From: Botryllus schlosseri
Taxonomy: Eukaryota
NCBI GenBank assembly: GCA_051294905.1
Contig: CM119371.1
Coordinates: 40,426,001-40,490,000 of the forward strand
Length of the DNA stretch: 64,000 nucleotides
Direction: 5' to 3'
Shown here: piece after piece, positions 3,490 through 63,420 of the stretch
Position numbering within the stretch: position 1 is the first letter of the stretch
Layout of the letters: each line of letters starts with the position of its first letter
Notes under the pieces: generated by a model
Database searches by the model: none
The model's input: only the letters and a program-made list of their open reading frames with translations
What the model was told of the DNA's origin: nothing
Position numbers and translations under genes: made by a program

Positions 3490-4436
3490 CAGGGCCGTAA
3501 CAGCACTTCGTCAGTCCTCCCCCCCCCCCCAAATGTTGGTCTTGGGCCCCCCATATGGTTATAAACCGAACTTCTGGGGGCCTTGGTCCCCCATACCTCC
3601 CTCAAGCTGTTGACTGTTTACCGCTACTTGTCGTCTACATTGGGTGTCCGTTTAGTGAAACAGCTTTTATCGCCTAAACGCGAGAAAATTCTATAGTTCA
3701 TGACTGAATCGGTCAATATGATCGGGAATTGCATATATATCGCTATCAATTGTTATCCTCTCTTTGCTCACGTAATCTGATTTACCGGGAGAGTTGAGTG
3801 AGGTGTTTTTGATAAGGTAGGACCCCTCAATAAAACTTAAACATCTCCAGGTGTATACCCGTTGGCAGGAACGAAACAGCACTTCGTCAAGCCCCCCCCC
3901 CCCCCCCCAAGAAAAATAAAAAAATAAAAAATAAATTGAGTCTTGGGCTCCAATAGGGTGATAAACTGACTCCCCATCTCGTTGTTCGCTTTTGTCACGA
4001 AATTATAATTGTACTGTCTAGTGACCCAGCGCTAAGCTATACGTATTTAGTATTTATATAACGAAGTTTTCGGTCAGCATGAGGGCAGTCCTTGCCGGCC
4101 AAGGTTTTCTCGCTGCCGATCCGTCTGGCACACTTCTTGGAGTCGCAAGTTACATGGCCTAAAACTTTATGTGTTGGTGCGTCGTTACGCGGTAATGGCC
4201 AACGCCGACATGCCCATTTCTGAAAATCTTGCGTATTTTTTTGGGGGGGGGGAGGGTACCCAATAATCAATATAATTGACATCCCAAAATCGCGCGTAGA
4301 GCGAAAAAAATTGAAAAGGTTGCTTAAATTTTCAGAAAATACGCTATAATTTATGCTAATTCACGATATAGTTTTGGGCCCCTTGGAGCTCGCCCCTCCC
4401 AATTGGGGGGTTTAGGGTGCGGCTATAACGGCCCTA
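3490..4436. mobile_element. Non-autonomous hAT element, family A (CAGGGCCGTAAC termini)
   Basis: TIR CAGGGCCGT / ACGGCCCTA with a perfect 8-bp TSD ATCTTCAG (3482-3489, 4437-4444). Several related copies occur elsewhere in the window. Confidence 0.9.
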
Positions 4437-5707: not shown

Positions 5708-6673
5708 GTAAGTATGAACTGTATTATCAGAATATATCAGGGATCGGTAACCGATGACTGACACGCGTGTAATTTGCACAAGTGACCTGCGGGGGAATGT
5801 TGTTACATCCAAAATCAGTCACATTTTTCGAAACAGAAGTTTTCAAGTTACCGTTTTTGATGACCCAATACGCCAGTTTAGAGAATACCATAACTAATAT
5901 ATTCTACTTATGTTTTAATTTTATCGAAATTCCTGAAAGATAATCATGAGCGTGAAATCGGTGCGGTAAAACGCAACTGCGGTCCTCAGATTTCAGCTCA
6001 ATTGTTCGGATTTCTTGCCTGGTTCGAAAACTAGGAACGAAATCGAAATCTTGCATATACTACATACTACTGCATGCTGCGAATTAAGACTATTATACCC
6101 CTAATCCCTTTTTAAATCATGAAAACGTAACATCACTCTGTATAATGCAATCAATGTCACCACAAATATGCGCAATGTTTACAAGTGATTTAGATACCGT
6201 GTTACATGCAGGGACCATTTATCCTGTACTTTCTATGGCAATTTCTTCTATGAAGACGATACAATTTTGGGCTACCCCGAAATTGGTGTCTACTACGAAA
6301 ACGTTAGCAGTTTTGCCTGATAAACGGTATATTAGAGTAGGTGATACTATTGGAGATACAAAACTTCAATATGTAATTGAATAATATTATCGTATTGAAA
6401 AACAAACCGAATCTTTTTGGTTGAAACTCATTAGGGGTAACCGTCAGCAACAATCGGAGAATTGAATTGATAAGTGGAAGTGCAAGTAATCAAACCCTGT
6501 TGAGTAATGAGAAAATGTAAAGGCACGTTGTTAGCGACCAACCATATACAAATCCTTCGCACGCGCGAGTTGTTGATACTTAGATATTCAGCCAAAGTTT
6601 CCGACCCTTAGACTATAATTTCGGCATCGGACATCGGGATATATTCCAATATCCCTGAAATTATCCTTTTCAG

Positions 6674-12600: not shown

Positions 12601-13222
12601 CTATCACATCATTGAAAGATAGGATTGGAATCAGCAATATGACGTCACGTGACGTCATGAGGTTCACGTTCGCGTTCACACAGAACCTTTCAAAAAGGTT
12701 CGCGTTCACACGAACCTGAACCTTTAAGAGGTTCACACCATCCCTAAGAAGTAGGGAATACTTACTTCGGTACTCGTACCTCGTTACTGTCAATCTCCGG
12801 AGCTATACGTTACACATAATTGTAAACTAAAATAGATAAACCTGTAAATTTTAATTCGCAGTGTGAACTTTATTGCAACACCTTGTTTCTTATGTCGAGC
12901 ACATATGATTCTATTACAACAATCGATGGGTATGCTATTTATGGTGATTGGCGGACGTCTTGTGATAAACTCACAATGAGGTCATCCAGCCAGCAAAGAA
13001 TCAAATATCAGCTTACAAAATACTTGTAGCATCGCCTATAAAAGAAAGTCGTTCATTCTTGTACCATAATAATGTATAGTCAGTTCGTTATCGGATCAAG
13101 ACGGACGTGTCAAGCATCCAATAACGATTTGCATATGGCCTATGTATCTGGAAAAGACTTAACTTCAAACTATTTGCGACAATACTTGGGTCGGAAGTGA
13201 CTTCAGAAGTGATACGGATATT

Positions 13223-14089
13223 ATGAGCTTGTTTGAGGCATATTTATCGACTGTGCTGTCACTGGTGAACTTTGTGACGGATATCTGCTCGGTTTGGATA
13301 TACTGGATGCAGACGGACGATAGTTTAGACGGTTTCTACGTAGCGCTTATCTCTACACTGATCTTATTTATAAGTCCCATACCTATTACCATCGGTATAG
13401 CGTGTACCTTCACCAAAAGATCCACTAAAGTGGAAACAACTTTGCGCAAAGCAAAAACGCTAGAATTGACATTGACAGCTACACCTCAACTATGGATCAG
13501 TTTATACGCTTTATCAGTTGGCGCAAATATACTTTACGGGGAAACAGCAATGTTACTCGTGTCATCAGCTATGTCGTATTTATCAGTATGCGCGATCCTA
13601 CCACGTGCCGATAACAGAATCTTAAGTAAAACATTTCAAAACGATTGCATGACTGACTGCGACCGCTTCGTGGTTAGCTTCTCAAAATGTGCGATATTTC
13701 TGGCGCGAATGTCGTTGCTGGTTTACATGACCTCACAGATAGGATGGTTTACTGCTTTGTTCTTTGGGATGCACTGGATTATGCTATCTGCTTTGTGTTT
13801 TTGTGCTATTTCAAAGCGCTCTATCAATCCGTGTCGAAATGCTATTGACGCTATCGAATCAGGACTTTTGCATTTCTTCTCGTGGGTATGCCCAGTTAAG
13901 CGGACTTGGTCTCACTTCTTTATGACGGCGTATTTTATTTTGGAACACGTTCTAGTGTGGATCTTGTTGCTGTGTTTGCCTAACAACCAATCTACTTTTC
14001 TCATCGCCAATGTACTGGCATTTCATGTGTTGATGAATACTATCGCTACTTTATTCATGGTTGCGTATGTTATTAAGAAATGGCCGTGA
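13223..14089 (+). CDS. XK-related (XKR/CED-8 family) multi-pass membrane protein, short and divergent, 288 aa
   Basis: Uninterrupted ORF with about 8 hydrophobic segments. XK-family motifs appear in the expected order: TM1 NFVTD (DxxTD), ELTLTATPQLWISLY (ExxLExxPQLxLQLY), SYLS, ARMSLL, MHW and EH. Confidence 0.85.
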   Translation: MSLFEAYLSTVLSLVNFVTDICSVWIYWMQTDDSLDGFYVALISTLILFISPIPITIGIACTFTKRSTKVETTLRKAKTLELTLTATPQLWISLYALSVGANILYGETAMLLVSSAMSYLSVCAILPRADNRILSKTFQNDCMTDCDRFVVSFSKCAIFLARMSLLVYMTSQIGWFTALFFGMHWIMLSALCFCAISKRSINPCRNAIDAIESGLLHFFSWVCPVKRTWSHFFMTAYFILEHVLVWILLLCLPNNQSTFLIANVLAFHVLMNTIATLFMVAYVIKKWP

Positions 14090-14629
14090 GTTCGGATATA
14101 ACATATCCTGCTGCAATGAAGGGTTTACAATTACGCGGGGAGTAATGTAAAGTCAAGTATTGCATGGAGTCTCGTAGTTTTGCGCTTAGCGCATGACCTC
14201 ACTGTATAGGCCCTTGTGGTGCATGCAACATATTCCTGCTGTACGTCAACTTATATACCCGTTTCATTTAATTTCGCAAACAGATTTTTCATTTCGAAGT
14301 ATTCAAGGTGATTTATTTATTTTCATTGCCAATCTTGGTCTCTAGTAGGTTATTGGTGTTTACCGAATGCGTTAAAAAAATTCAAAAGTGCCGAAATTCA
14401 CAGTTACCAGACTGTTGTTCCATGTCAATGAACAACGAAAGCAATTACTTTAGTATCGACAAGCCATTGTAAAAGAGAGGAGTATTCATCACGGAGTGTG
14501 TAGCCGTCATACATAGAACTACTATAGCATACTCAATGTATATCCATTTTGGTGAATATTGGTTTGAAGAGCTTCTTGGAGGTACAGAATTTCAATATGC
14601 AATTGAATAGCATACTCATATTTAAATGA

Positions 14630-14663
14630 ACCCGAATATTTTCGGCTGACACTCGTCAGGGGT
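14630..14663 (-). ncRNA. Minimal type I hammerhead ribozyme motif, intact core
   Basis: The minus strand reads ACCC-CUGACGA-G(uguc agc)C-GAAA-auau-UC-GGGU. This gives stem I ACCC/GGGU, the CUGANGA and GAAA cores, a 1-bp stem II, palindromic AAUAUU stem III and a UUC cleavage triplet. Confidence 0.8.
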
Positions 14664-14817
14664 AACCGTCGGCAACTAGTAGAGAATTGGAAAGAACATT
14701 GTATATCAACAATCGTATCACAAAATATGACGTCACCAGCATGAAATTTCGGGAATGTACTATAGTAAATATATTTTTAGGTGGTACACGAACTCCTTTT
14801 GTTGACAGAGTTTTGAT

Positions 14818-15036
14818 GATGCTGATCGATCAAAGGCCATTAATTCTGCCATCGGCAAACATCTGTTAGATAATCCGATCTGTGCGAATAATTATCAAGA
14901 CCACCGATTTCGAATCGTTGGGCGCGGCCGTTCACAATTCCATTTGTGTGCCTTAGAGTCGACTTTTATCAAAATACACCAACCAAAACTCTGTCAACAA
15001 AAGGAGTTCGTGTACCACCTAAAAATAGTACATTGA
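14818..15036 (+). pseudogene. C-terminal fragment of a Penelope-type GIY-YIG endonuclease
   Basis: An open frame without ATG reads DADRSKAINSAIGKHLLDNPICANNYQDHRFRIVGRGRSQFHLCALESTFIKIHQPKLCQQKEFVYHLKIVH*. This matches the SAIxxHL..F.I..L..LE..I..P.LC.QKEFV pattern of PLE ORF ends. Confidence 0.85.
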
Positions 15037-15139
15037 ACGCTCTCTCATTCACGAAATTTCATGCTGGTGACGTAATATTTTGTGATACGATTGTTGATAT
15101 ACAATGTTCTTTCCAATTCTCTACTAGTTGCTGACGAAT

Positions 15140-15173
15140 ACCCCTGACAAGTGTCAGCCGAAAATATTCGGGT
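15140..15173 (+). ncRNA. Minimal hammerhead motif with a core substitution (CUGACAA, G8A), probably inactive
   Basis: ACCC-CTGACAA-GTGTCAGCC-GAAA-ATAT-TC-GGGT. It is identical to the 14630 copy except at the conserved G8. Confidence 0.7.
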
Positions 15174-15865
15174 TCATTTCAATATGAATATAATAATCAA
15201 TTGAATATTGGTTGTACTCGCAGCAAAAAGAAAACGTTGTATTCGGTGCGTACGTCTTCGTATCATTCGTATTTGTGTGACACAGTCACAGCTGCCAGCG
15301 CAATGCACATTTTTCCTAATGACATCGTGCCATTTGAAAAATATGACTTCCATTGCCCCAATGCTCGCATCAGAATAAAAATCAATTCAGAATTATTATT
15401 CATCAAAAGATCCGTGGAATAAACACGAATTGCTAAACAATCAAACATAAAGAATACGTCGAAACAACTTCTTCAACACACTCGATCAACTCCTACCTCG
15501 GCCTGCAGGCTCTAATGGGCCGGAAATCATCACAACATTAGGAAATTGCACATGATCTGCGCACTATGTGAGGCACGAGATGTCGGACAAACAGGACCAT
15601 TTACGCCTCTCTTTCGAATCACGTAAAACATAAAGTTTATCACACATGATAATCTCATAATCGGGGTGTCAAATTTGATTTTAAATAATTATACGTATTG
15701 TTAAGTGGTGGTAAGTATGTAAATAACTTTAACGGTATCGAAGTTGCAATATAAGTTTCTCAAAGCCCCTCGTAAATCACACAGGCTAGGGTTTTGGCTT
15801 TGGATCAATTCGAAATACAAATAAAATCGTTTCAATAATATATTCATGACAGAAATATATTATAC

Positions 15866-15898
15866 CCCGAAGCTTTTCGAGCTGACACTCTTCAGGGG
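15866..15898 (-). ncRNA. Minimal hammerhead motif, variant subfamily, intact core
   Basis: The minus strand reads CCC-CUGAAGA-G(ugucagcu)C-GAAA-agcu-UC-GGG. The stem-III palindrome is AAGCUU instead of AAUAUU. Confidence 0.75.
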
Positions 15899-16245
15899 CA
15901 ATCGTCACCGAATGGGGAATTTCAAAAACATATTTCTGTCATGAATATATTATTAAAATGTACAATAAAGTTCTGTACCCCGAACAGTCTATTCAAATAA
16001 AATCGTGGAACAAGCGTAATGTTCATATTTTGACAGATGGCCCACTGCATACGATAAGTAGCCAACCCTTGACCTACGGAATTATCGAAATATTGGACAA
16101 GCAATAAAAATCAAGATACCATTTTCAATACGAGGCACAATGGAAGTAATAGTGTCAGCCAAAAAATATACTAGCATTTGAATAGCTTCTTGGAGATACA
16201 GAACTTCAATATAACAATAATTAGCATATCGATATTGAAAGATTG

Positions 16246-16277
16246 CCCCTGACGAGTGTCAGCCGGAAATATTCGGG
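16246..16277 (+). ncRNA. Minimal hammerhead motif with GAAA changed to GGAA, probably inactive, in a PLE pseudo-LTR fragment pair (about 16180-16315)
   Basis: CCC-CTGACGA-GTGTCAGCC-GGAA-ATAT-TC-GGG, preceded by an inverted pseudo-LTR tail. Confidence 0.65.
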
Positions 16278-19200
16278 TCCATTTCAATATGATTATACTA
16301 TTCAATTGTATATATTATCTAGAATGTATTCCAGTTTCATACTCTTCTTTCTCCTTTCTGCGGATAATGTCATATATGAAGTGGCGGAAGAGCATTGTTT
16401 CAAGTCTATTGTTATAGCGTTGCTCTATTCGTTGCCTACAAACCCAGTATAAAAGTACGGTAATGTGACCGTGCCTTGCCTGTAATAATATATTGCGTTG
16501 TAGTCTACGATTCTCACGGCGTCATGTTTTCATCACTGGCCGCGTGATGTGATTGTGATATACTATTACTATCGTCTGTTCCAGGCGAATCACGTTGCAG
16601 ACCACCTGATCTGCGAAGGTGTGGGCGAGGCGTGACTTATTACTATGCGAATCCACTAAACCCGACATCAACTTCGGGCAGCAAAGCAAATCTGTTCACG
16701 AATCAATTTCGTGCATCATTGGAATATTGCCAGATCGCATATGTACCGGTTGGAATGTTTCCGTGCGGGCCGTTCCGATTTTTGATTGGGTAGAATCGCA
16801 TGCGTGTTTGGTTTGGAAATAGCATCGCGTAATTTGCGTAATATGTATAAGTCTGACGTATTGTAACTCAATGTGTGAACTCACCCCACTTGATTTCGAC
16901 AATATTGTCAGTAATACTTAGTAGAAAAGTCACCATTTCTGATTGAGCTAACTACTTCGTTACAGCTTAATAATTACTTACTTTAATTGGCGTAAATATT
17001 TGTTATGCTCCGTACAGTATACACATTTTTTGTGGTAGTTTTCGTTAGCATTTTACTCTTAGTAGCAATATCCCAATCTATGCTATATGTACATTGTATA
17101 TAATGCCGGTGACGTCATTGTTGGTCATACGATTGTTGATTTACAATGTTCTTTCCAATTCTCTACTAGTGTTTGACGATTACCCGAAACCTTCGGATTT
17201 GTTTCAATATGAATATATTATTCATTTACATATTGAATTTCTGTACCTCCAAGAAACTCTTCAAGTTGATATCATTTCTATATTATTACGTACGGATGCA
17301 GTAGCAGTAATTAGTCATCGGCCACCTCTACATATCTCGTAGATATATGACCATAGTGGATTGTACGATTTACAAATAGGACATTCCAGCAGACTGACCT
17401 GACAATACACTTCGCCTAACGCTGTACGAAATATGCGGTGTCCGGCCAATATATTCGTGTCTATCAGTCACACGCGGCATTCATAACATGCGTCAATCCC
17501 GTTCACAGCAACTGAAACGCCTACTTGCGATGCGAAAAGATGTCTTCAAATACAATATTGTTGTGTCATGACTAGCGTCTGCTGGTAATATTTCCTGGTT
17601 CAAACATACGGGATATCTCACTTCGAGTGCAGTTAAATTGCCGCATCACGTCGCTTTGAAATGGAAATGGATTCCTCGCAAATAGGTAATAAACCCGGAT
17701 AATTGAGATATCAATAAAACTCGATAACTTTGCAGTAAAATTAGTGCGCTGTAGCTTAAAGTTCCTCCGTCGAAAGAATCTGTTCCGTGTTCAGTTCAAT
17801 GCTAATATGACAGATAGCAAATGGACGAGGATTGAGAAACCTTTCGGCCTGATCATTTCAACGCCCGCAATTGATATCAACAGGTATAAGTAGCTACCAC
17901 CACAAGCTTTGGTAGCGCCGAAGTGTACGGGAACGGGTAATTTACCGTTATAATATTGATCAATCTGTTTGGGTGAGGTCGATGTGAATAGAAATCGGTA
18001 ATTTGATGAAGCAAGGTGCTGCATCAAGTCGACCGAAATTCTGGCAGCATACGTCAAATGATACCACTGCTGAATCTCTCTTCTCAAATGGAACCAACAA
18101 GTTTTGCCTTCCAAGTTATAAAGCTCGAATCTAGTTATCTCTATTGAAAGGATGGTAGCCTATGTTTACCAAGGTCATTGTATTTACGCCGTAGCGTAAC
18201 GATGACTTCTGATCGCGTACCGGGGAAATACCTCAAGTATAGTTCATAGGGAGGATAAAAAATGACGTAATCTATAGAACTGTCTAGGCAGGCCCACTGT
18301 ATTTCTCACAGTCGTTATTGTAAAATGATAACTATGGCTGACTTATAACAGCTGGTTCGCATTGAAGTAAGACGTTGTGAAGTTGCGTCATTGGAAGTCA
18401 TCAGATTACTTCGGATACACATCATGTGTTTATCGCAATAGTGGAGAAATTCGGTACCTTGACTCATGCGTGACTCTATATTGAATACGATCACTTATAC
18501 GGGGAAATATTCAGGTATCTTGCTCAAGCTATGGGTATGAATACTTGAGATCAAGCGATACAGACGCTTTCATCGTAATTATCATGTTTCGATTCCAGAT
18601 ACTTCAAGACTTGCAATACAGTTAATAAAAAGGAAGGAACAGAAACGACTAATTAATCAAACTCATTTCTTAGCCTACAAATATATAGTTAGCAATCGGA
18701 CAAAAAAACGTGATAAAGGAGGCATACACGCCATAGTCTAGTTTTAATGAGAAATATCATTCAGAATTCCAGGTAAACAATGAAGAGACATTTTACAGAA
18801 TAGTGTACAGGCGAAGTCGCTGTGTCAAGATCAATTCGACAATCTCAATACGCACCCTATATTAATCCGATAAAATGGACATGCATTTAGACTTCAAGGT
18901 GGTCATGGTCATGGTCATCGGTCATACTTTGAAAGCTCTGCTATCGAACCAAAGAGGGCTTGTACACATGTGCGTTAGATTTCATAGTACTGAAAGTGTC
19001 AAATTCAGCGGACAGATACACAGATTGAAAGAATGCATAAACTAGCAATTTCTAGCTACCTCGTTTCTTTATTATTCAAGGCTCGATTTGATCGAAAAGA
19101 ATCTCACAGAACTAACTTACATAATATTAGTCGTATAACTGAATTCGGTATACGTATTTACAGGTGATATAGTCACTTTCGTTTAATCGTGTTTTTGCGT

Positions 19201-21782: not shown

Positions 21783-21895
21783 GTTGATTATAGGTTGCAA
21801 GGTCAATTTGATTTTGATGCTATATGGTGGTAGCAACAGGACATGTTATGTTCAGATAATACCACTTATACAAGTGTCTTTAATATTACGAACTG

Positions 21896-23530
21896 ATGAT
21901 GTCGGGGAAGCAGTCGGTTCCGGAGCTGCAAATTTTGCAGACAATAACAAAGCACCTTCAGAGATCACGTTTCAGTGGGAAGTACGCAGATTTCAAAATC
22001 ATAGTCGGCAGCAAAGTGTTCCCAGCTCACCGCTTTATTCTCGGAAACAAATCGGCGTTTTTCCGTGACGTGATTCATAATAACGCAAATAAAGACACCC
22101 CAGTATCGTGTGATCATTCGGAATACACAGCAGATGCTGTCAGCGTATGCTTGGAATACATTTACACAGATCGACTCGAGTTCGAGTCTCACAACGCGCC
22201 GGCTGTTTTGCGCGTGGCGCATCATTGGACTTTGCGTTATGTCGTCACCAAGTGCGAGCAATTGCTGAAGACTAGCATAACGTCGTCAAACTGTATCAAA
22301 ACAAGAGCGCTGGCTACGAAACTTGGCCTTGCGGACCTCGGGGAGTGCGCTAACAAGGCTATTCTTGGGCATTTTGAAATGGTGACTAAAGCTAAAGATC
22401 TAGTCATTTTATCAGTTGATGATATGAAGTCCATTAAAGAGACAGCTATGGAAAGAGCATCAGTACGCATTAAAGACTTATGGACTCTATTTTACACATG
22501 GCACAAACGAAAAAACAAGGCTGGATCTCACACCTTATGCGAATGCTTGCATATATTCCCGTTCGACCAGTTTACAGTCACCGGTTTCAAAGAGCAGATA
22601 TGGAAAAACGAACACGTGTCGAACTGTGACCAGTGTCAGGAAGTCGCGGTACGGGCGTTTCTGAGTACATTTGACGAGCCACGAAAAGGCGACGACATTT
22701 TATTCCTTAAAAAGCTCGCGAAGAAATACGATTTTCGTACGTTGAACGAAATTACGCGCAGACACATTGTAGAGAATCATTTATTTATATTCACAAATCA
22801 CGACATGGGCGAGCTCGATAACGATGATTTGATGGAGTGCATTAACGATATCGAGGACATGTGCACGCCCGGTGAGTTTACGGCGATCGTGAAATGGATG
22901 GTAAAATCGAAAAAGCGACAAGAAATTTTCCCGCAAATATTTAAATGCGTGGAGGATCCTACCTGCGCGCCACACAACGTGTTTCTGTCCAGTATTGGCA
23001 GATTTTTTGGTCTTTCCGAACCCACCGCGGCAGAAGTAGCATGTTCTATTTCACGTGAGCAATATTGGTGGCCGAAATACTGCCTTTTCCTCAAAAAGCT
23101 GGCGGGAAAATACGACTGTAGCGTTATAGAGAAATTCGTGGATCAATGCATAGCCGGGGGTTTTGCCGAGGTCTGTGAAGACGTCGGTTTTTTAGAACTA
23201 CGTGCTCCTGACTTGATAAATTATCTGTCGTCGAAGTCCACGTATAGCTGTCGTGAAAGCCAGATTTGGGGGGCGATCATGTGCTGGATTCGTCATCACG
23301 AGTCGAGACGGGAGTCGTTTCAAGCTATCTTCGATTCGCTAAAGCTAGAAGAATTTACGACCGGTTTCCTGAGGTCGAACATATTAATCAACGCGTTAGT
23401 GATGGAGTCCAAAGCCAGTGTTTTCTCCGTGATGAGGGAGATTCTGCGAAGATTAGAAATATTGGAAAGCGAACACGCGGAAATGAAGAAAAACCTTCGC
23501 AACAAAATCGATCGGAAACAGACAAAATGA
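21896..23530 (+). CDS. BTB/POZ protein with three tandem BACK-like repeats and a C-terminal coiled coil, no Kelch repeats (544 aa)
   Basis: BTB motifs ADFKIIVGSKVFPAHRFIL..KSAFFR and LEYIYT. The BACK pattern occurs three times (e.g. CLFLKKLAGKYDC..FAEVCEDVGFLEL..ESQIWGAIMCWIRH..RR). The ORF is uninterrupted, with a splice-acceptor-like TTCAG at about 21855 just upstream. Confidence 0.9.
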   Translation: MMSGKQSVPELQILQTITKHLQRSRFSGKYADFKIIVGSKVFPAHRFILGNKSAFFRDVIHNNANKDTPVSCDHSEYTADAVSVCLEYIYTDRLEFESHNAPAVLRVAHHWTLRYVVTKCEQLLKTSITSSNCIKTRALATKLGLADLGECANKAILGHFEMVTKAKDLVILSVDDMKSIKETAMERASVRIKDLWTLFYTWHKRKNKAGSHTLCECLHIFPFDQFTVTGFKEQIWKNEHVSNCDQCQEVAVRAFLSTFDEPRKGDDILFLKKLAKKYDFRTLNEITRRHIVENHLFIFTNHDMGELDNDDLMECINDIEDMCTPGEFTAIVKWMVKSKKRQEIFPQIFKCVEDPTCAPHNVFLSSIGRFFGLSEPTAAEVACSISREQYWWPKYCLFLKKLAGKYDCSVIEKFVDQCIAGGFAEVCEDVGFLELRAPDLINYLSSKSTYSCRESQIWGAIMCWIRHHESRRESFQAIFDSLKLEEFTTGFLRSNILINALVMESKASVFSVMREILRRLEILESEHAEMKKNLRNKIDRKQTK

Positions 23531-26569: not shown

Positions 26570-29500
26570 CAAAGGTGGCCTTAGGATTGGGGGGGCCCTG
26601 GGCGAAACTTCCAGGGGGGCCCCCATATATCTAGAAACGCAGCTTCTGGGGGGCTCCGCCCCCCAGACCCCCCTCTCAATACAACTATTACATATATTGC
26701 ATGGTAAAAATATACTCCATTAAAATTTATGGAATGTTTTTGCTGTATAAAACTATTTCAAGGAAACGATGACAGGATTGCAATGACTCGAGTCGTGATA
26801 TTTTGGTGACTCGACTTGGCTCAGATCAAAATATAAAAATAGGATTGACATTTGACTCAATTACAACCCTGAATAAGACCTAGAGCTAATCGATCACCAA
26901 GGTGACCAAACCATGAATTTGATAGAACACGCACATAGAATTGAAACTTCCAATGAATGAAGAAACTACTATGACCGGACAATTGAATTGATGCATTTAG
27001 TATTTCAAAAAAGCAGAAATCAAAATTATAATAGGAAATATGACACCAAAAGTAAAAAAGAACAACTATATGGAAACTATCATACGGGTACAAAATGATA
27101 TTGGCCTGGTGTAAACTTACCAAAGCAGTCGAGACAACATGATTCATGAATACTCAAAACAACAACAAACAACAATGACTTCCCTTCTATGACAAGATGA
27201 CTCTTACCAAGAGGAGTTTATGGTCATCAAGAATTATTACCGGATCACTCAACTCATGGACTATATTTCTACAGAGAAAGAAAAATTATTTATTCGTAAT
27301 AGCTAACACAGCAAAAGTACCTACAGAAATGAACAAATACCGGTATATTACAAATCACCATTTGTCCCAGAAGTGACCTAACCAAGACATAGTTTCATGT
27401 TTATGGTAAATTTTACATTGAATGCTTGCAATGGTACCGGTCATAAAACAGGTTAGCCAGACCACCTCGTCTAAATGTCTAAAGATAGAATAGAAGAAGC
27501 TCTTGAACCTGACAATTAAATGAGATGAGGGGTCAGAACCAGGCTCATAATAATTTTCAAAATCAAGTCATACACAGCGTCAAATTCAAATATTGTTGGT
27601 GCAACACTGTCCACACAAAGATTGCGAACGCCAGTTTCAAGAGGAACTAAACATTATCCAAAACTCCAACTTCTGCCAACAATTTAGGCTACATTGCTGT
27701 CACAACTTTGAAATTATATATTCAATTTATTCAGCAAATAGCTTCCATATCATCACTAGAGATGAAAATTTTTGATTTGACAGAAATATGAGGGATACTC
27801 CAATGATTTTCATTAGAAATGACTTCAAACTTGAGTGCCGTACACAAAAAAGCTAAATTGTAACTTGAATGATATATTAGATCAACTTCTACAAGATAGC
27901 TCTGTACAGACCTACCAAAAATTCTATCAATATTACGATTGAATGAGCCGGAAAAGCTTGTTTTTTATCATGCGCCAACTTGAAAAGCTGGATATTGAAC
28001 TTAAAAACTTGAAATTGTGATGTAGGCTACTCGGATATATTTCAAAATCACTTGTCAAATCTAAAAACTGAAATATACCATCAATTTGTTTTAGAGCTAC
28101 TGACATGGAGCCTATTACTGAAAATGAATGAGATGCATGCACCAGTCACTGAAAATATATACTTACTGTATGCACTGTAGTAGTTTTAATGTTATTGTAA
28201 TTTTATAGCACTGAGAAAAAGGTGTAGAATATTATTTAAAAATATCATGAACGTGATATCATTCACGACAAAATTCTACGTTAGCGGATGCGATCGCGTC
28301 TCTCGCACAAATCTCTCCTAAATAAAAATTAGAAGAAAAGGAGTAGCAGCCGGGTCTTCAAAATTATGTGAATACTTGGTGAGTGAATAGTGCGATACCA
28401 AAATCTGCAAGGATTCTGGGCGGGAGACTCAAAGCATGTTAATAAACCGGGTCGCCTTCAAGAGCATTTAGAAGATTTTCATCTAATTACAAAATGAATA
28501 GAGTGCGGTAGGCCTACCCAATACAAAGCATGCACTTCCAATCGGTGCAAATATTTGATCACCGGCCCCTCTTTACGACAACATATTCCACATTGGTGCA
28601 TGGATATCCATGGTTATTCGCAATATGATAACTATAAATTGCGTAAATGTAGGAGGGGGCCCCCCTCATAAAATCGAGGTAAGCTTGTACAACGCGTGCA
28701 GAATTTAATGATCGACAACTGTTTACAGTACCAAATTTTACATGGGTAGGTCTGCATATATTTTCAGTTATTTGCAAAATGATAACCAAAAATTGCGTAA
28801 ATGTAGGAGGGACCCCCTTATAAAATCGAGGTAAGCGCCCCCTTCATAAAATCAAAGTATGCTCTTTTACCGCGCACAGAAATTTGATGATCGACAACAG
28901 TTTACAGCATCATATTCTACATGGGTACATATATTTCCATGGTTATTCGTAAAATGATAACTATCAATTGCGTAAATCTAGGAGGGCCCCCCCCCCTCAT
29001 AAAATCGAGGTAAGCTCGTACAACGCGTGCAGAGTTTGATGATCGACAACTGTTTACAGGACCATATTCTACATGGGTACATATATTTTCAGGGTTATTC
29101 GCAAAATGATAACTAAAAATTGCATAAATGCAGTAGGGCCCCCCTCATAAATCGAAGTAAGCTCGTACAACGCGTGCAAGATTTAATGATCGACAACTGT
29201 TTACGGTACGGTACCATATTCTACATGGGTACATATATATTCACGGTTATTCGCAAAATGATAACCAAAAATTGCGTAAATGTAGGAGGGCCCCCCCTCA
29301 TAAATCGAAGTAAGCTCGTACAACGTGTGCAGAAATTTAATGATCGACAACTGTTTACAGTACCATATTCTATATGGGTAGGCCTGCATGTATTTTCAGT
29401 TATTTGCAAAATGATAACCAAAATCGCTTAAATGTAGGAGCCCCCGTCATAAAATCAAAGTATGCTCTTTTACCGCGCACAGAAATTAGATGATCGACAA

Positions 29501-29829
29501 CTGTTTACGATACCATATTCTACATGGGTGCATGGATTTTCACCGTTATTCGAAAAATGATAACTAAAAATATGATTATGATTGACCCCTTTTTACGGTA
29601 CTGTACCATATCCTTTATGGATACAAGGATTTCCAGTTATTCAGAAAATGGTAATAGTTGAAAAAAGCGCGTAAACCGGAGAAATAGTTGGAAAAAAAGC
29701 GCGTAAACCGGAGAAATAGTTGGAAAAAAGCGCGTAAACCGAGGAGGGGGGGACCCTCGAAAGCGCGTAAATCAACCAGGGGGGGCCCTGGGCGACCGCC
29801 CACCTCGCCCACCCCAAAAGCCACCACTG
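26570..29829. mobile_element. 3.3-kb internally decayed hAT element carrying tandem arrays
   Basis: Imperfect TIR CAAAGGTGGC / GCCACCACTG, GGGGGCCCTGGGCGA subterminal motifs and a perfect TSD AGAACAGC. A weak hAT dimerisation-like remnant SFSSWRMIKNKL lies on the minus strand near 27950-27990. Confidence 0.8.
28575..29570. repeat. About 150-bp tandem repeat, about 7 units, inside the hAT element
   Basis: The anchor CCATATTCTACATGG recurs at about 28581, 28731, 28910, 29062, 29214, 29363 and 29513. Confidence 0.9.
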
Positions 29830-37272: not shown

Positions 37273-39158
37273 CAGTGGTTCCCAGCCTTTTTTGGTGGCA
37301 GGGCCAAATTTAGAACTTAAGAGTACGGTCGGGGCCGCACGAATACCAGGGCAATGAAAGAAACCCAAAATAGTCATCAAAATATGAAAATTGCCACTGT
37401 TCCGATCATTCGCTTGATGCCATTGGCCATTGTGTTGCCGCGCTTCCGTTGTTCAGAACAATCAACTTCTGGTGGCTCTATCGAAGTAGTTTTATTGCCC
37501 TGGCGATATTTCAATTCGTTTTTTGGAATCAGTGCGACACTTGTTTCCGATAACCACCGACATATCAAATTATTCGGACGCTTGGGTCGCGAGCAATAGG
37601 ACTACCAATTATGCTGCTTTTTGTCGGCTAAGCAGTACGCATCTCGGCGTATTCAATCGTGAGTCACTTGCTGCACATCTATCCGTAAATTAGTTATCAA
37701 TACCCAGGGCCGTAATAGCACTTCGTCAGGACCCCTAAACGTTGCTCTTGCCCCCCCATAGGGTGATAAACCAAACTTCGAAGCCCCCCTCAGGTTATAG
37801 ACGGCTGTTTACCGCTATTTATCATCGAAATCGGGTGTCCGTTTCAGGCAGTTACTCTCGACTAATCGCGCGAGGCGCGAAAAATTTATCTAATTCATGA
37901 TTGAATCGGTCAATATAATCGGGAATTGCATACATATTGGTATCAATTTTTATCCTCTCTCCGCTCACGTAATCAGATTGACCGGTTAAGCCGAGTGAGT
38001 TGTGTTTAAAAAGGTAGGACCACTCGATAATAATTCTACATCGTCAGGCCCCCCAAAACACTTAGGTCTTAAGCTCCCATAGGGTAATAAACCGACCCCC
38101 CCCCCCATCCCGTTGTTCGATTCTGCCACGAAATCAGAATCACCGTTTAGTGAGCCAGCGTGAAATCTTCGATAATTCAAAATAAAATAGGTCAATAAGA
38201 TCGGGAATTGCATATATATTGCTATCAATTACTTGTCCTCTCTGCTCAGGTAATTAGATTTACCGGTAGAGCTGAGTGAGGCGTCTTGGAAACTGTAGGG
38301 CCCGTAAATTATAATAAACATATTCGGACGGGCAGACCCGTTGGTAGGACTTCGTTACATGATGTTATTTCGTGACCTCCAGTCTGCTATATAAAAAAAT
38401 ATAGAATCGCCCAAACGTACCAAACTAAAATTTGCACACGATTTGAAATTGGTAGTTCTTCACTGGCATATAATTCTTCCCTGTGGGATGGTAGCCTAAT
38501 TGTCTCGTGAGTTTCGGATTGCCAAGACAGGAACATTCGGTGCCATTAGGCGCCTATGGTCAATAATACCTTTATGTATTTTGTATATGCATAACGAAGT
38601 TTTCGGTCAGCGTAAGGGCAGTGCTTTTCGGCCAAGGTTTTCTCGCTGCCGATCGTTCGGGCACACTTCTTGGAGTTGCATGTTACATGGCCTAAAACTT
38701 TATATGTCTTTGTGCGTCGTGGCGCGGTAATGGCCAACGCCGATATGCCCACTTCGACAAATCTTGCGTATCTTATCTTGGTGGAAGAGTAGCCAATAAT
38801 TATGGTAGTTGGAAACTTGAAATCGCGTCCCGCGCGAAACATTTTTGAAAAAGTTGCATACGATTCCATAAAATACTCTATAATTTATGCTAATTCATTA
38901 AATAATTTTGAGCCCCCTTCGAGCTCGCCTCCCCCCAATTTGGGGGCTTGGGGTGCGGCAGTTACGGTCCTGTCAATACCTATCTGTATACCTACATTCC
39001 TACATCTACAACCCACAACTTTCCTGCAATCCTAATTGAAAACTCCAAGCCAAGCACGAGTATTTTATAAATATCTATATTTTTTCATAAATCGATTTCT
39101 CAATATTTTTGTGCGGGCCGCAAGAAGGCTAGCTGAGGGCCGCGGTTGGGAATCACTG
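37273..39158. mobile_element. Charlie-like hAT element nested in the pogo-like MITE
   Basis: TIR CAGTGGTTCCCA / TGGGAATCACTG with a perfect TSD GTCTAAAC. Confidence 0.9.
37705..38972. mobile_element. hAT family-A copy, innermost layer of the nest
   Basis: CAGGGCCGTAA ... TTACGGTCCTG with a perfect TSD TCAATACC. Confidence 0.9.
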
Positions 39159-44296: not shown

Positions 44297-46795
44297 CCAC
44301 AGGGTATGTGTACATTAATAGAGGTGAAAGGTCAATTTGAAGCATTATTAGGACATGGGTAGGGACATGGATGTCAACAGGTCTACATGGATGTCGACAA
44401 GTTATCATGGGCCTTTTCCATGTCAACATGACTCAGGTGGGACCAGGTCTAGACTATGGGTACACCCATGATTATTTTTTACAGTGTATAATTTCAAAAA
44501 AGAGGACAAAATCTCAAAAAAGAGGGCAAAAGGGCGTCCTCCGAGGACCCTTTCAAAAAAGTCAAAAAAGAGGACGAATCCTATTAAAAGAGGACGTATG
44601 GTAACCCTACCATAGGGTGATGAAACGACCCGTCCATCACGTTGTTCGCGTTTGTCACGAAATCATCTGTACTGTATTGTGAGCCAGCGCGAGGCGCGAA
44701 AATTTTCGATAATTTATGATACAATCGGTCAATCAGATCGGCGAATACATAATATATTATCAATTTATTTTCCTCTCTAGTCACGTAATTATTTACCGGT
44801 AGAGCTGAGTGACGTGTCTTGAAAACGGGAAGGCCCGTGAATAATAATTAAACATCTTCTGGCGGGCGGACCCGTTGATATGACTTCGTTACATGATGTT
44901 ATTTCGTGACTTCCAGTCTGCTATATCAAAAAATATAGAATCACTCAAACGTAGGCTTCTAAACTAAGAGACGCACACGATTTCAAATTGGTATTTCTTC
45001 ACTGGCATAAAATATCTCCCAGAGGGATGGTATTTGTCTTGTAAGGTTCAGATTGCAAAGACAGTAACATTCGGCGTCAGTCATTTAGGCGCCTATGGAC
45101 AATTAAACCTATTTGTATTTTATATATAGAACGCAGTCTTCGGTCAGCATAAGGGCATAGACCTTTTCGGCCAAGGTTTTCTCGCTGCCGATCGTTCTGG
45201 CACACTTCTTGGAGTCGCGTGTTCTACGGCCTAAAACTTGATTGTATGTCTTGGTGGGTCGTGGCGCGGTGATGGCCCAATACCAAATAATAAAGATAAA
45301 TGGCTAATTGAATTGGCGCACTACGCGAAAAAATGTTGAAAAATTGGCTCAAATTTTCAAAAAATACTTTATGATTTATGCTAATTCACGAAATAATTTT
45401 GGGCCCCCTTCGAGCTCGGGCCCCCCAATTGGGGAGTTTGGGGTGCGGCAGTTACGGTGCTGGATATAGCCTACATATATATTTATTTGTTCATAGGCGC
45501 CTAAATGGCTGGCGCCAAATGTTACTGTCCTGGCAATAAGAACCGCACAAAAAATCACATCTCGCAGATATACCTATCTGAAATCGTGTGCGTCTTTAAG
45601 TTTAGTACGTATGGGCGATTTGAATATCTTTTGACATAGCAGACAGGCCACGAAATGTCATTACGTAACGAAGTCATTATACCCACGGGTCCGCCCGAAT
45701 ATGTTCATTGTTCAATTATTATTTACGGGCCCTACATTTTCCAAGACACCTCACTCAGCTTTACCGGTAAATCTGAATACATAAGCAGAGAGAGAGGATA
45801 AAAAATTGACAGCAATATATACGCAATTCCCGATCATATTGACCGATTCAATCATGAATGATATAAATTTTTAGGGCTTCGCGCGGATTAAGCCGACTAA
45901 CCTAAGAGTCCAACAATTTGTGCTGAGAAGTAGCGGTAAAGAGGTATCGGGGTGAGGGTTTGGTCTGAGTGGTGCAGAAGTTTGCTTTGTCGCCCTATGG
46001 AGGGGGGGGGGGGGTCAAGACCAACGTATTGGGGGGGCTGACGCAGTGCTGTTACGGTCCTTTTGGAATCAAGTCGGAGAAATCACCTTTTTTGTTAGTC
46101 AACTCACCAAAATTTAGCTGGAAAAGTATACTTTAGAGGTCGACTCGAAAATTTGACCTATTATCTTAGTTAACTCGCCGGTGATTTCAGTCGGTATGCC
46201 CATTTTTCGGTTCCCAATATTTTGGGGGCAATGATCGGTGTGGAATTTGAAAAGGGAGCGATGAGTCGAAAAAGGTTGGGAACCACTGGATTATATCTTG
46301 CGCACATGGCCTCTTGTGCATGCAATTGTTAAGACCTGTCGTTGACACGATGAATCAGCAAGGATTCCGCGCACTCTTGTAGCAATCTGCGACCTAATTT
46401 CGCTCGCGTACAAACGGCAAACTAACTCAGCAAGAGAGCACGTATTGTGCAGAAGACTCTCGTTAATTGGCAATACGCTTCTCTATTTGGCAGCGCCGTA
46501 CACTCTATAATACGAATTACGGCGTACGGGGCATTGGAAACAAACATGAAGAAAGGTGCGATTTCAAGTTCTTGATGGAGGGAGATTTTTTTCAAGGCTT
46601 GCTGTACCCATGTATAATGCGCACAGCCTATTTTAGGGCAAAAAATCGGTAGAATTTTGCGCATTATACATGGAAAATTAAGGTATTCCCCACTAGAAAC
46701 CATTGAATTCCCCACCACTGGGAACCACTGGTCTATTATATCGCATTACGCTAACTGTTTATATGTATCCTCACATCTGCACTACGCTTACCTAC

Positions 46796-48308
46796 CAGTG
46801 ATGAGCGGACTGTGATATATTTCGGTCCAAGTCCAATCCTGAAAATTTTTAACTCACTCCTACTCCATCCTTTTCCAAAAATATTTTCAAAATTCACAGT
46901 CCAAGTCCGGTCCTGAAATCTTTCAACTCAGTCCTACTATATCCTGATCCAAAAATATTTTCAAAACTTACAGTCCAACTCCATCCTGATCCAAAAATAT
47001 TTTCAAAATCTAAAGTCCCAATCTATAAATAAAAAACAGAAGAACATGTTATAGAGAATAATTAGGCTATCTGAAATATTACTCTGGTCTGTGAAAAGAT
47101 GTATATTTCCAATGTTTGCCTTCACTCGAGCTGCAGTGGGCCTACATGACACAGCAACTTTAATTTTACATTTTAGCAACACGAATGTAAATATCTAGAC
47201 TGGCAAGATGGCTATCAATACCTAACCATCAAATCATGAGCAATGTGCATGTGCGTACATACAATGACATCAGGGTTGATCAATATAGTTTTTTTTATAA
47301 ATTTGACTGGCTAGTTGATAAAATTGTTAGGTCGGTTTGAACAAACGCTGCACATCAAATTCGATTCAATTCCAGCCTGTAGAAGCGAAGTTATTACAAC
47401 TGGAAAATTTTCAATATAATAAAAAGTATACACACTTTTTCGAATTATACTGGCTGCCCGTCCCTATAAAGTTTTGTAAGAAAATCGTGCATAACAAATT
47501 TGACTCAATTCCAACCCACACGGTATTTACTGTGGGATATTCTCTCATCAATAATTATAGATCTGAAACACTACTTTGAAGATTCATATTGAAATGAACC
47601 CGAATATTTTCGGCAGAAACTCGTCAGGGGTAATCGTCAGCAACTAATAGATAATTGAAAATAACATTGTATATCATCAATCGTATCACAAAATATGACA
47701 GCCGAAAATATCCGGGCTTATTCCAATATGAACATACTATGCAACACCATTTTTCTAACCCAAAATTTTCCACTTCAAAGAATTCACCTATACCGGTTGG
47801 AATTCAACCAGTAGCATCTTTAGCCAGTAAATTTCGAAAAAAAAGTTATATCTATCCAATCCTAATGTACCTACTATCCATACCAGACAAACAAATAATA
47901 TAGTCACGTTCCGGGTCAATACACAACAATTTTGCCATAGTAGTTTGTTCCGTGAGTACATAAAATATTTTAGACGAAAGAACCAGCCAAATCACAATAT
48001 ATAGGTGAGCAAATACCACATTAACGATCAACTTGAATCAACGTCCATTGGCAACACTGGGAACAATTCTTCTCTCCATCCGCCCGCACTGAGCTATATA
48101 AACAAACACTGAGCTATATTAAAATACCCCGCACTTCTGGTTGCGAAATCAGCGTGCCCGAGTCCGGATTTTGGCATGCGCAAAGTCCAAGTCCAACTAT
48201 ATTTTTGAAAATCACAATCCGAGTCCAAACTTTTTTCTCAAAATCACTATCCGGACCTAACGAAAATAACCCATAATCCTGATCCTGTCCAATCCAATGC
48301 TCATCCTG
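46796..48308. mobile_element. hAT element with GTCCAA/ATCCTG subterminal repeats, carrying a PLE pseudo-LTR insertion
   Basis: CAGTGATGAGC ... GCTCATCCTG with TSD TTACCTAC / CTACCTAC (7/8 match). Confidence 0.75.
47598..47631 (-). ncRNA. Minimal hammerhead motif, intact core, in a PLE pseudo-LTR (about 47580-47740)
   Basis: The minus strand reads ACCC-CUGACGA-G(uuucugc)C-GAAA-auau-UC-GGGU. Differences from the 14630 copy are confined to loop II. Confidence 0.8.
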
Positions 48309-52949: not shown

Positions 52950-53596
52950 CATAGTGTCCTATATGGTGTGAACACAATCAAATCTGACGGCTCAATGAAA
53001 TTGCTCTACGTCACACTTTCCATTTGGTCAAAGGCAATTTGACGGTAGTTTTTGACCGACTTGCCGAGCATTAAATTTGATAAAACGGGTATGGATCGAA
53101 AGCTACCGCGGCGCTGGCTGCCAAAAAATATAAATTCTATTCTGCCCCCTCCAAAAATAAATCAGCCTGCAATGTTGCATTGTAACGGAGTTTGGTATTG
53201 TGACGCAGCCATGCCACATCTGAGCAGCTCAGGAGCAAGCGCGCACGAGAGTAAGAATGTGAATGCTCAATCGGTTGCGCAACAATGGTCAATATGCTTG
53301 CGGTTTACTCTGCTCCTCCCGTGCTCCCAGACGGTAGCGTCACAATACCAAACTCCATCACTGCAACATTCGAAGCTGATTTTGGGAGTTCCATGACCAC
53401 GAGCAGAATACAATTTATATTTTCGCAATCAGTACCGCGGTAGCTTTCGATTGATACCAGTTTTATCAATTTTAATGCTTGGCAAGCCGGTCAAAAATGA
53501 CCGTCAAATTGCCTTTGACCAAAGGAAAAGTGTGACGTAGACCAATTTCACTGAGCCGTGAGATTTGCTTGTGAAGACACCATATAGGACACTATG
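52950..53596. mobile_element. Foldback MITE of the P-element family, with inverted arms over most of its length
   Basis: CATAGTGTCCTATATGG ... CCATATAGGACACTATG with long inverted arms and a 7-bp near-TSD CTTTGAT / CTGTGAT. Confidence 0.75.
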
Positions 53597-55289: not shown

Positions 55290-56954
55290 CAGGGGTGGCC
55301 AACCTTTTTGATGTTCACGGCTACATTTCGATTACTCATGTCGCCCACAGCCGCATTCCAGGCAGGGCCGTAACAGCACTTCGTCAGGCCCCCCCAAAAA
55401 CTTTGGTCTTGGGCCCCCCTATAGGGTTATAGACCGTCTGTACTGTACTGTGAGCCAGCGCGAAGCGCGAAAATTTTCGATAATTTATGATAAAATCGGT
55501 CAATCAGATCGGCGATTGCATATATATTATGCTATCAATTTATTGTCCTCTCTACTCACGCAATTAGATTTACCGGTAGAGCTGAATGAAGTGTCTTGAA
55601 AACGGGAAGGCCCGTAAATAATAATTAAACATCTTCAGGCGGGCGGACCCGTTGATATGACTTCGTTACATGATGTTATTTCGTGACTTCCAGTCTGCTC
55701 AAAAAATATAGAATCGCCCAAACGTAGGCTTCTAAACTAAGAGACGCACACGATTTCAAATTGGTATTTCTTCACTGGCATAAAATTGTTCCAAGCGGGA
55801 TGGTCTTTGTCTTGTGAGGTTCAGATTGCAAAGACAGGAACATTCGGAGCCAGTCATTTAGGCGCCTATATGGACAATTAAACCTATATGTATTTTGAAT
55901 AGCCTATATAACGAAGTCTTCGGTCTGCATAAGGGCATAGACCTTTTCGGCCAAGCTTTTCTCGCTGACGATCGTTCTGGCACATTTCTTGGAGTCGCAT
56001 GTTTTCTGGCCTAAAACTTGATTGTATGTCTTGGTGGGTCGTGGTGCGGTCACAATACCCAATAATATAGATAAATGGGCACTGAAATTCGCGCGCAGCG
56101 CGAAAAAATTTTGAAAAAGTTGCATATATTTTCAAAAAATACTCTATGATTTATGCTAATTCACGAAATAATTTTGGGCCCCCCATCGAGCTCGCCCCCC
56201 CCCAATTGGGGGGTTTGGGGTGCTGCAGTTACGGTGCTGATTCCAGGACATAGTCGTGATGAACTAACTGGATGCCAAATATCCATATTCAACTGCCCAT
56301 GTCCATTACCGGTGAACTCCGGACTAATCTATTCATACACATCGGCACACTCATTTCTGGAACCAATTGTGGTCGCACGAGCCGTGAAATTTTTTTCAGA
56401 TTCGGGAATGAATTTTGTCATTATTATTAGTAGTTTCACATATTACTGCCAGACATTCAATTTTTTCCTTTCACAGCCCATGCGATCAGATTCACCGGTT
56501 GAGTTCATGGAGGTGAGCGTTTCCGAAAATGTTGGGCAAATCATAATCGATGATTTATCTTCTGGTGGGCCGATTGTTAGTAGTCACTTTGTTGCATCCT
56601 AACTGTTGTTATTCCAACTCCCATGAGGATTGTCAGTATATAGTGGAAATATATTGAAATCCCCCAATAGTACCATAATCAATTTTCTTTCGTGAGGAGC
56701 ACACGATTCCAAATTGGTATTTGTGTATGGGGCCCTTCATTTTCATGTGCTGTTCATATCTGTACTGCGGTGCTCAGATTGCAAAAAACGCTCCCATATT
56801 AAAATCGCGCAAAAAAAAATTTCCATATTGATCACTATCGGGAGTCGATTTGTAATTTGAATATGCATGTTGAAGGCCACCAACAAATAATAATTGAATT
56901 TCGTGTCGAAGGCCGCACAAATTCCATTCTACGGCCTCAGGTTGGCTATCCCTG
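55290..56954. mobile_element. hAT element hosting a family-A copy and a LINE endonuclease scrap
   Basis: CAGGGGTGGCCAAC ... GTTGGCTATCCCTG with TSD TTTTAGAT / CTTTAGAT. Confidence 0.8.
55363..56239. mobile_element. hAT family-A copy
   Basis: CAGGGCCGTAAC ... GTTACGGTGCTG with a perfect TSD ATTCCAGG. Confidence 0.9.
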
Positions 56955-63386: not shown

Positions 63387-63420
63387 ACCCGAATATTTTC
63401 GGCTGACACTCGTCAGGGGT
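63387..63420 (-). ncRNA. Minimal hammerhead motif, intact core, in a PLE pseudo-LTR fragment (about 63384-63489)
   Basis: Identical to the motif at 14630-14663. Confidence 0.8.

What the first reader, a model, noticed from the sequence alone, without database searches (positions are those of the whole stretch)
14564..15210. Penelope-like element with hammerhead-bearing inverted pseudo-LTRs, invisible in the ORF track
Seen: a 650-bp foldback whose loop and right arm encode a GIY-YIG C-terminus, and whose arms each hold a 34-nt CUGANGA..GAAA..UH motif closed by stem I. Established: PLE pseudo-LTRs carry minimal type I hammerheads, and PLEs often integrate with an inverted pseudo-LTR. Inference: a fairly young, probably uncatalogued PLE family with self-cleaving RNA ends, inserted about 0.5 kb downstream of the XKR stop. 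Read-through there would give a long dsRNA hairpin.
Basis: partly seen in the sequence, partly recalled or inferred. Interest (0 to 1): 0.75.

Follow-up and report, generated by a model that had tools for sequence, protein, structure and literature searches.

The report
Head-to-head Penelope retroelement stub with hammerhead
This is a broken, head-to-head insertion of a very abundant Penelope-like jumping gene, in the layout already described for these elements; one of its two small self-cutting RNA motifs has lost a key base, and only the possibly knotted fold of that motif looks unusual.

Summary
The foldback is real: arms 14593-14815 and 14984-15210 (89% alike), 168-nt loop, flanked by a 12-bp direct repeat. 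The 72-aa stub is 97% identical to the end of a protein that also carries Penelope-type RT motifs. The arms' outer ends encode the ORF's first codons, 14 nt after the hammerhead cut site, and only the left arm has the 29-nt 'tail'. This is the published PLE layout. Corrections: only the left arm has an intact CUGANGA core; the right has G8-to-A. The family is very abundant (8 sites in 64 kb). XKR is expressed, but its reads fade before the element and none lie beyond it, so a read-through hairpin is unsupported; it would also carry only the damaged ribozyme in sense. One unusual point: helix II is a single G-C pair whose loop can pair with a 7-nt segment 5' of helix I, with one compensatory change in distant relatives; a possible pseudoknotted PLE hammerhead. 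The scan noted a knotted stem II and a head-to-head PLE insertion before, elsewhere in this genome. Cleavage and 'uncatalogued' were not testable.

The parts
14553..14564 (+). Left copy of 12-bp direct repeat (likely target-site duplication)
   Evidence: chance 12 of 3000 random pairs, and 4 of 3000 with the real right end against random left flanks
14564..14815 (-). Left arm: inverted, 5'-truncated copy (44 nt of ORF end, pLTR, hammerhead, ORF start, tail); small internal rearrangement near 14758-14770
14564..14592 (-). 29-nt 'tail', present on this arm only; family 3' terminus at about +56 from the AUG
   Evidence: DNA contigs break into unrelated flanks at 14563 (154 contigs in X3, 190 in X16, agreement 0.39)
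14563..14619 (-). Start codon and first 19 codons of the PLE ORF, 14 nt after the predicted cut
   Evidence: 10 of 19 residues identical to the N-terminus of full-length relative P0003
14630..14663 (-). Type I hammerhead with intact core; helix I 4 bp, helix II one G-C pair, palindromic helix III; predicted cut 14634/14633
   Evidence: activity not tested
14667..14673 (-). Segment complementary to loop II (14645-14651), proposed pseudoknot strand; one pair is broken at 14671 in this copy
   Evidence: inference
14816..14816 (.). Head-to-head junction; one extra base between the two 5'-truncated copies
   Evidence: Native upstream sequence seen as loose ends before 14817 in DNA contigs
14818..15036 (+). 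[quoted passage not shown]
   Evidence: 97% to P0001 and P0027; alignment with RT-bearing relatives
14984..15210 (+). Right arm: ORF end, pLTR, damaged hammerhead, ORF start; ends at about +27 from the AUG, no tail
15140..15173 (+). Hammerhead with G8-to-A change at 15149; predicted inactive
   Evidence: a single change at G8 (G8C) abolished a PLE hammerhead in PMC11167929; G8A itself not tested
15202..15213 (+). Right copy of the 12-bp direct repeat; its first 9 nt resemble the element's own sequence at that point (8 of 9)
13163..14089 (+). Neighbouring XK-related open frame (host gene), expressed; not part of the element

Best explanation
A dead, 5'-truncated insertion of a high-copy, endonuclease-bearing Penelope-like retroelement, most likely of the Penelope/Poseidon type. 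Shown: the order ORF end, pLTR, hammerhead, AUG, first codons, so the template came from a tandem (head-to-tail) source copy; two copies joined 5'-to-5'; a flanking 12-bp repeat; one long and one short 3' end. Inferred (about 0.6): the RT-endonuclease cut both target strands 12 nt apart and primed reverse transcription from both ends, once at the downstream start site (about +56, giving the tail) and once at the upstream site (about +27); both cDNAs stopped early and were joined. Inferred: in active copies the hammerhead cuts 14 nt before the AUG, probably slowly, as a dimer through its palindromic helix III or with protein help, and may be braced by a pseudoknot (about 0.45). This copy does nothing as a ribozyme: the right core is damaged, and any RNA spanning both arms would bury both motifs in a long duplex.
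For: Stub 97% to P0001 and P0027; P0027 has RT motifs; 23 of 24 longer relatives carry RVT_1. Arm ends encode the ORF N-terminus. 3' ends of window copies cluster at +25 to +30 (4 of 13 arms) and +53 to +56 (5 of 13, the left arm included); 4 of 5 inverted pairs have one of each. A second insertion has a 13-bp flanking repeat. Both metagenome relatives (51-53% aa) have the same hammerhead followed by an AUG after the ORF. Same layout in print: PMC3846280 (pLTR holds the first 12 aa, 22 with the 31-bp tail, 8-10 bp TSD), PMC8557442, PMC11167929 (both strands cut and extended, two start sites).
Against: No full-length copy of this family was seen; the genome is not held and P0027 starts inside the RT. 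No empty site was among the 15 listed joints (of 1191). The left arm was the reference, so ends past +56 could not show there (one search supports that end separately). PMC11167929 reports priming without target homology, whereas the right end here has an 8-of-9 match. PMC3846280 favours self-priming for inverted junctions. No pile of read ends at the cut site. No tree with named clade members was built.
Confidence: 0.88

Rival explanations
1. Same element, but the inverted arm was made by fold-back: the growing cDNA or second strand switched template or self-primed and copied the pLTR again, rather than a second priming on the other target strand.
For: PMC3846280 reads palindromes at inverted junctions as self-priming. 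The inner 44 nt of the arms are identical.
Against: The arms differ at 12 of 165 positions in the outer part; the left arm holds 29 nt that the right arm lacks, so it was not copied from the right arm alone; the junction has no palindrome or clear microhomology.
Confidence: 0.3
2. The insertion works as a regulator of XKR: read-through makes a long double-stranded hairpin that is edited or diced.
For: Insert lies 475 nt after the stop; no AATAAA or ATTAAA between the stop and the element; the foldback is very stable, -351 kcal/mol; XKR is expressed.
Against: Sense depth falls from about 17 to about 3 (X24) and from 7.9 to 3.5 (X22) in the last unique bin before the element; zero depth at 15220-15824 in both runs; no A-to-G excess in RNA over DNA runs. 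Reads inside the element cannot be assigned to this locus.
Confidence: 0.12
3. The family's hammerhead is a conventional minimal PLE motif, and the complementarity to loop II is a by-product of a short duplication of the core sequence or serves an off-state fold, not a catalytic pseudoknot.
For: The upstream segment repeats the core CUGACG; the predicted monomer fold pairs the core itself with loop II, an inactive hairpin. Only 1 of 7 pairs shows a two-sided change, from one lineage (L001, L002); 11 of 70 cells do not pair.
Against: Helix II has only one pair without it; the upstream pairing is stronger than the core pairing in both lineages (-9.6 vs -6.8 and -8.1 vs -3.9 kcal/mol as duplexes); chance of such a match 61 of 20000 (a test chosen after seeing the match).
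Confidence: 0.5
4. A non-autonomous retrozyme-like or MITE-like element unrelated to an RT-coding PLE.
For: Most window copies are short pLTR-only pieces; summed contig depth over the hammerhead is about 4 times that over the endonuclease stub.
Against: This copy carries coding sequence from both ends of a PLE ORF; copies are not in tandem arrays; ends match PLE tail sites.
Confidence: 0.03

Closest known systems
Endonuclease-bearing PLE insertions with inverted pLTR, tail and TSD (Adineta Pen2/Pen2a, PMC3846280; general scheme, PMC8557442)
   Same: Head-to-head 5'-truncated copies, about 30-nt tail on one end only, pLTR plus tail encoding the ORF's first ~20 aa, short TSD, relatives with ~840-aa ORF
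   Different: TSD 12 bp rather than 8-10; host genome holds thousands of copies rather than few; only 72 codons of the ORF end are kept
Minimal type I hammerheads of metazoan PLEs (Cervera and De la Pena 2014, PMC4209133)
   Same: Type I, short helix I, palindromic helix III, G10.1-C11.1, in the pLTR; pairs on opposite strands 100-700 bp apart are reported there
   Different: Their consensus has an extra base after A9 and a multi-pair helix II (shortest I saw by eye among the 56 listed: 3 bp). Here there is no extra base and one pair only, with a loop complementary to a segment 5' of helix I
Poseidon element of Anolis, PAc (Frangieh et al. 2024, PMC11167929)
   Same: Two 3' ends about 30 nt apart inside the ORF start; hammerhead next to the start codon; no RNA-seq read ends at the cut
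   Different: PAc cut lies 26 nt after the AUG and RT starts 111-118 nt into the ORF; here the cut is 14 nt before the AUG and ends lie at about +27 and +56
Pseudoknot hammerheads (Perreault et al. 2011, PMC3088659; Zhan et al. 2024, PMC11300833)
   Same: One-pair helix II (G10.1-C11.1) whose loop forms a 6-7 bp pairing with sequence linked to helix I
   Different: No room for Zhan's helix IV plus A-rich linker (3 nt only); helix III here is too short for a monomer; structure and activity untested

Membership tests
EN+ Penelope-like element | RT followed by C-terminal GIY-YIG endonuclease in one ORF | tested here: met
   At family level: P0027 (97% to stub) has RT motifs and the endonuclease; P0003 hits RVT_1 (E 1.4e-8) and GIY-YIG (E 1.4e-4, 22.5 bits, cut-off 22.6). 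This copy lacks the RT.
EN+ Penelope-like element | [quoted passage not shown] | tested here: met
   CxC between the two motifs and two later histidines in P0001, P0027 and relatives; definition from PMC8557442. The stub keeps only the last histidine.
EN+ Penelope-like element | pLTR that overlaps the ORF start, with optional 30-40 nt tail | tested here: met
   tail 29 nt
EN+ Penelope-like element | Target-site duplication | tested here: inconclusive
   12-bp flanking repeat, unlikely by chance; no empty allele seen
EN+ Penelope-like element | RT groups with PLE RTs in a tree | not tested
   No named PLE reference proteins on hand; DKG motif present in full-length relatives
Penelope/Poseidon clade | No CX2-5CxxC zinc-finger linker between RT and endonuclease | tested here: met
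   No such motif in P0027 or P0003; a reduced Nematis-type linker cannot be excluded without a tree
Naiad/Chlamys PLEs | N-terminal endonuclease, no canonical hammerhead | tested here: not met
   Endonuclease is C-terminal and a hammerhead is present
Type I hammerhead ribozyme | Core CUGANGA, GAAA, UH with helices I-III (left arm) | tested here: met
   two-sided changes in helix I (1 pair) and the helix III palindrome (1 pair). No Rfam model matched it.
Type I hammerhead ribozyme | Core CUGANGA (right arm) | tested here: not met
   G8-to-A at 15149
Type I hammerhead ribozyme | Site-specific self-cleavage | not testable with these tools
   No pile of read ends at the site in 2 RNA runs; such libraries may not show it
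Minimal PLE hammerhead (Cervera consensus) | Extra base after A9 and multi-pair helix II | tested here: not met
   One G-C pair with a 7-nt loop against the listing
Pseudoknot hammerhead | Loop II pairs with sequence attached to helix I, shown by covariation or mutation | tested here: inconclusive
   7 possible pairs, 84% of cells paired, one two-sided change from one lineage
Non-LTR retrozyme | Non-coding tandem repeats with a hammerhead in each unit | tested here: not met
   Coding stubs present; copies dispersed or inverted

The most novel reading that the evidence does not exclude
A group of Penelope/Poseidon-like elements uses a pseudoknotted, dimer-dependent hammerhead: helix II is cut down to one pair, its loop pairs with a near-copy of the catalytic core lying just 5' of helix I, and this pairing both braces the active fold and pulls loop II off the real core, acting as an on-switch. 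The cut falls 3-21 nt before the AUG and would give unit-length, uncapped messenger RNA from tandem transcripts. Such a form was not in the PLE hammerhead survey I could read.
Probability: 0.3. Interest if true: 0.55.

Novelty: new member of a known kind. Interest (0 to 1): 0.3.

Why it matters
As an insertion it is ordinary and adds one more example. It does give a clean natural check of the two-start-site model for PLE integration, since 4 of 5 inverted pairs in one window have one long and one short end. If the pseudoknot is real, it offers a testable reason why some PLE hammerheads cleave poorly when cut out as minimal motifs, suggests that searches needing a longer helix II miss such families, and bears on the open question of what PLE hammerheads are for.

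Tried and rejected
Own genome: not held, so no genome-wide copy count, full-length copy or empty site. Rfam: 0 matches at gathering score in the window; 1 chance miRNA-hairpin match at E 0.056. Pfam on the stub alone: 0 families. More relatives with DNA: viral contigs gave none by protein and 13 pattern matches with no PLE protein nearby, left out; genome contigs gave none by protein and 2 bacterial pattern matches, not examined further and left out. So covariation rests on 8 window copies, several decayed, and 2 close metagenome loci. PDB: only weak RT matches. XKR homolog search: none, so the host group is not named. Run search: no listed holder on record as RNA. Alternative reading with the upstream CUGACGA as the catalytic core: rejected, helix III is poor and its helix I does not form in L001/L002. 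Monomer folding: no support for the active fold (z between -2.0 and +0.4). Lunse et al. 2017 on PLE hammerheads with short stem III is not held; I saw it only second-hand and it may already show this fold. Earlier scan notes by sequence: none.

Full report
Observation. A self-comparison finds one inverted repeat with arms 14593-14815 and 14984-15210, 227 columns, 89.4% identical, around a 168-nt loop. The inner 44 nt are identical, the left arm has a small rearrangement near 14758-14770, and the outer 165 nt differ at 12 positions. The left arm runs 29 nt further, to 14564. A 12-bp direct repeat flanks the whole unit (14553-14564 and 15202-15213); a match that long arose in 12 of 3000 random pairs, and in 4 of 3000 when the real right end was kept. 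The right arm's core has G8 changed to A at 15149, so the claim of a full motif in each arm is wrong. The pattern matched 5 times in the window and never in 100 shuffles; Rfam does not detect it.

Protein evidence. The frame at 14818-15033 has no Pfam match alone but is 97% identical to P0001. A member of that cluster, P0027 (374 aa), matches the stub at 70 of 72 residues and carries RT motifs upstream of the endonuclease. Of 24 longer relatives, 23 carry RVT_1 and several are 826-857 aa long. The alignment shows a C-terminal GIY-YIG domain with the CxC and histidines of the PLE CCHH motif, a DKG motif, and no zinc-finger linker. By the features in PMC8557442 (sections 3 and 6 and passages read) that fits Penelope/Poseidon; I built no tree. 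The RT link is on an outside contig, since this window's genome is not held.

Anatomy. The outer ends of the arms encode the start of the same ORF: an AUG 14 nt after the predicted cut, then 19 codons with 10 identities to the N-terminus of full-length P0003. Both metagenome relatives (51-53% identity) show a like hammerhead about 200 nt after the ORF, with an AUG 3 nt after the cut. The window holds 7 further family sites. Of 13 arms, the left arm included as reference, 4 end at +25 to +30 from the AUG and 5 at +53 to +56; the other 4 end at +2, +4, +44 and +47. Four of 5 inverted pairs have one short and one long end. DNA contigs from two public runs break into unrelated flanks at 14563, which supports the long end. 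A second insertion at 15831-15993 has a 13-bp flanking repeat. Summed contig depth over the hammerhead is about 10^4 times that of the flanks in both runs; the tool warns that this is no copy number, but with 8 sites in 64 kb it points to a very abundant family.

How it most likely arose. This is the layout reported for Adineta Penelope elements (inverted pLTR, 31-bp tail on one end, pLTR plus tail coding 22 aa, 8-10 bp TSD; PMC3846280, passages) and drawn as typical in PMC8557442. PMC11167929 (parts 1-2 of 4 read) showed that a Poseidon protein cuts and extends both strands and starts at two adjacent RNA sites whose gap is the tail. I infer two primings on opposite target strands, one at each site, with early stops and a head-to-head join. 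Against this, PMC3846280 prefers self-priming for inverted junctions, and the short end here shows an 8-of-9 match to the target although the in vitro work found no homology. No empty allele was seen among the 15 listed joints of 1191.

Age. Each arm is 96.5-97.2% identical to the copy at 63.4 kb and the flanking repeat is exact, so 'fairly young' is fair. Other copies in the window are far more decayed (71-91%), so the family itself has been active for long.

XKR read-through. The XK-related frame is transcribed: depth about 10-55 in bulk run X24 over the coding part. In the last unique bin before the element it falls to about 3 from about 17, and in single-cell run X22 to 3.5 from 7.9. Both runs have zero depth at 15220-15824 (6% and 3% of each run read). 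No strong poly(A) signal lies in the gap, so the end is not pinned down, reads inside the element come from the whole family, and these animals may lack the insert. A minor read-through is not excluded. If it happened, the RNA would fold into a -351 kcal/mol hairpin with only the damaged ribozyme in sense, so it would not self-cleave. Family-wide RNA in X22 is sense-biased (499 vs 95 at 14978-15098; 1451 vs 739 at 15099-15219). No pile of read ends lies at the cut site; PMC11167929 also found none.

The ribozyme fold. Helix III is a palindrome that changes on both sides between subfamilies, as expected for dimer cleavage, and helix I has one two-sided change. Helix II is a single G-C pair. In PMC4209133 (text parts 1-2 of 4, supplement parts 1-2 of 3) the consensus has an extra base after A9 and a longer helix II; the shortest I saw by eye among the 56 listed was 3 bp. 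Here the 7-nt loop is complementary to 7 nt lying 3 nt before helix I. Of 70 cells 59 pair, and one pair changes on both sides in L001 and L002, which are one lineage. A match this good arose in 61 of 20000 random placements, a test chosen after seeing it. The segment is a near-copy of the core, and monomer folding pairs the core itself with the loop, so it may be a brace, a decoy or an accident of duplication. Pseudoknot hammerheads with a one-pair stem II are known (PMC3088659, passages; PMC11300833, part 1 of 6 and passages). Searches and passages showed no description of one in a PLE, but Lunse et al. 2017 was not available and may cover it. I also read part 1 of 5 of bioRxiv 10.64898/2026.07.22.740005 for the retrozyme definition; its supplements were not seen.

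Earlier scan notes. Unchecked notes describe an ordinary head-to-head PLE insertion and a PLE hammerhead with a knotted second stem elsewhere in this genome, and similar small insertions in other genomes. I wrote down the pseudoknot idea before seeing them and do not count them as support.

Verdict. A new member of a known kind: a dead, inverted PLE stub. The only lead with some novelty is the possible pseudoknotted hammerhead. Interest 0.3.

Noticed in passing
window 15818-16006: Second inverted PLE insertion of a related subfamily: 13-bp flanking repeat (15818-15830, 15994-16006), intact hammerhead core on the minus strand (15866-15895) with a different helix III palindrome, one short and one long end.
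   Followed up: yes
window 16177-16313, 47584-47744, 48743-48896: Three more small head-to-head insertions of the family; two have one long and one short end. No clear flanking repeat was found for them.
   Followed up: partly
window 63377-63489 (minus): Cleanest hammerhead copy in the window: intact core and all 7 proposed pseudoknot pairs. Best natural sequence for a cleavage assay.
   Followed up: partly
window 6350-6464 and 17089-17264: Decayed single copies; the 17.1-kb copy has lost the hammerhead core by deletion.
   Followed up: partly
reads laid at window 15152 and 14751: A family copy from elsewhere with an altered core is abundant in RNA (267 reads in X22, 85 in X24); many DNA contigs carry a different sequence upstream of the pLTR, suggesting another subfamily.
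   Followed up: no
window 21884-23530 (+): 548-aa open frame with BTB and three BACK domain matches, without a break, like the XKR frame.
   Followed up: partly
window 57922-59091 and 28502-29595: Tandem arrays with units of about 36-44 nt and about 150 nt.
   Followed up: no
window 3679-4431, 37847-38967, 44666-45885, 55437-56234: Another dispersed repeat family of several hundred bases, with an inverted part near 45039-45885; class not determined.
   Followed up: no
window 60911-62954 and 52950-53596: Two further inverted-repeat elements (arms 152 and 181 nt); the 141-aa frame inside the first has no Pfam match.
   Followed up: partly
L001 5712-5772, L002 555-615: Distant PLE relatives with the same hammerhead layout; the AUG lies inside the 3' strand of helix I, 3 nt after the cut.
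   Followed up: yes
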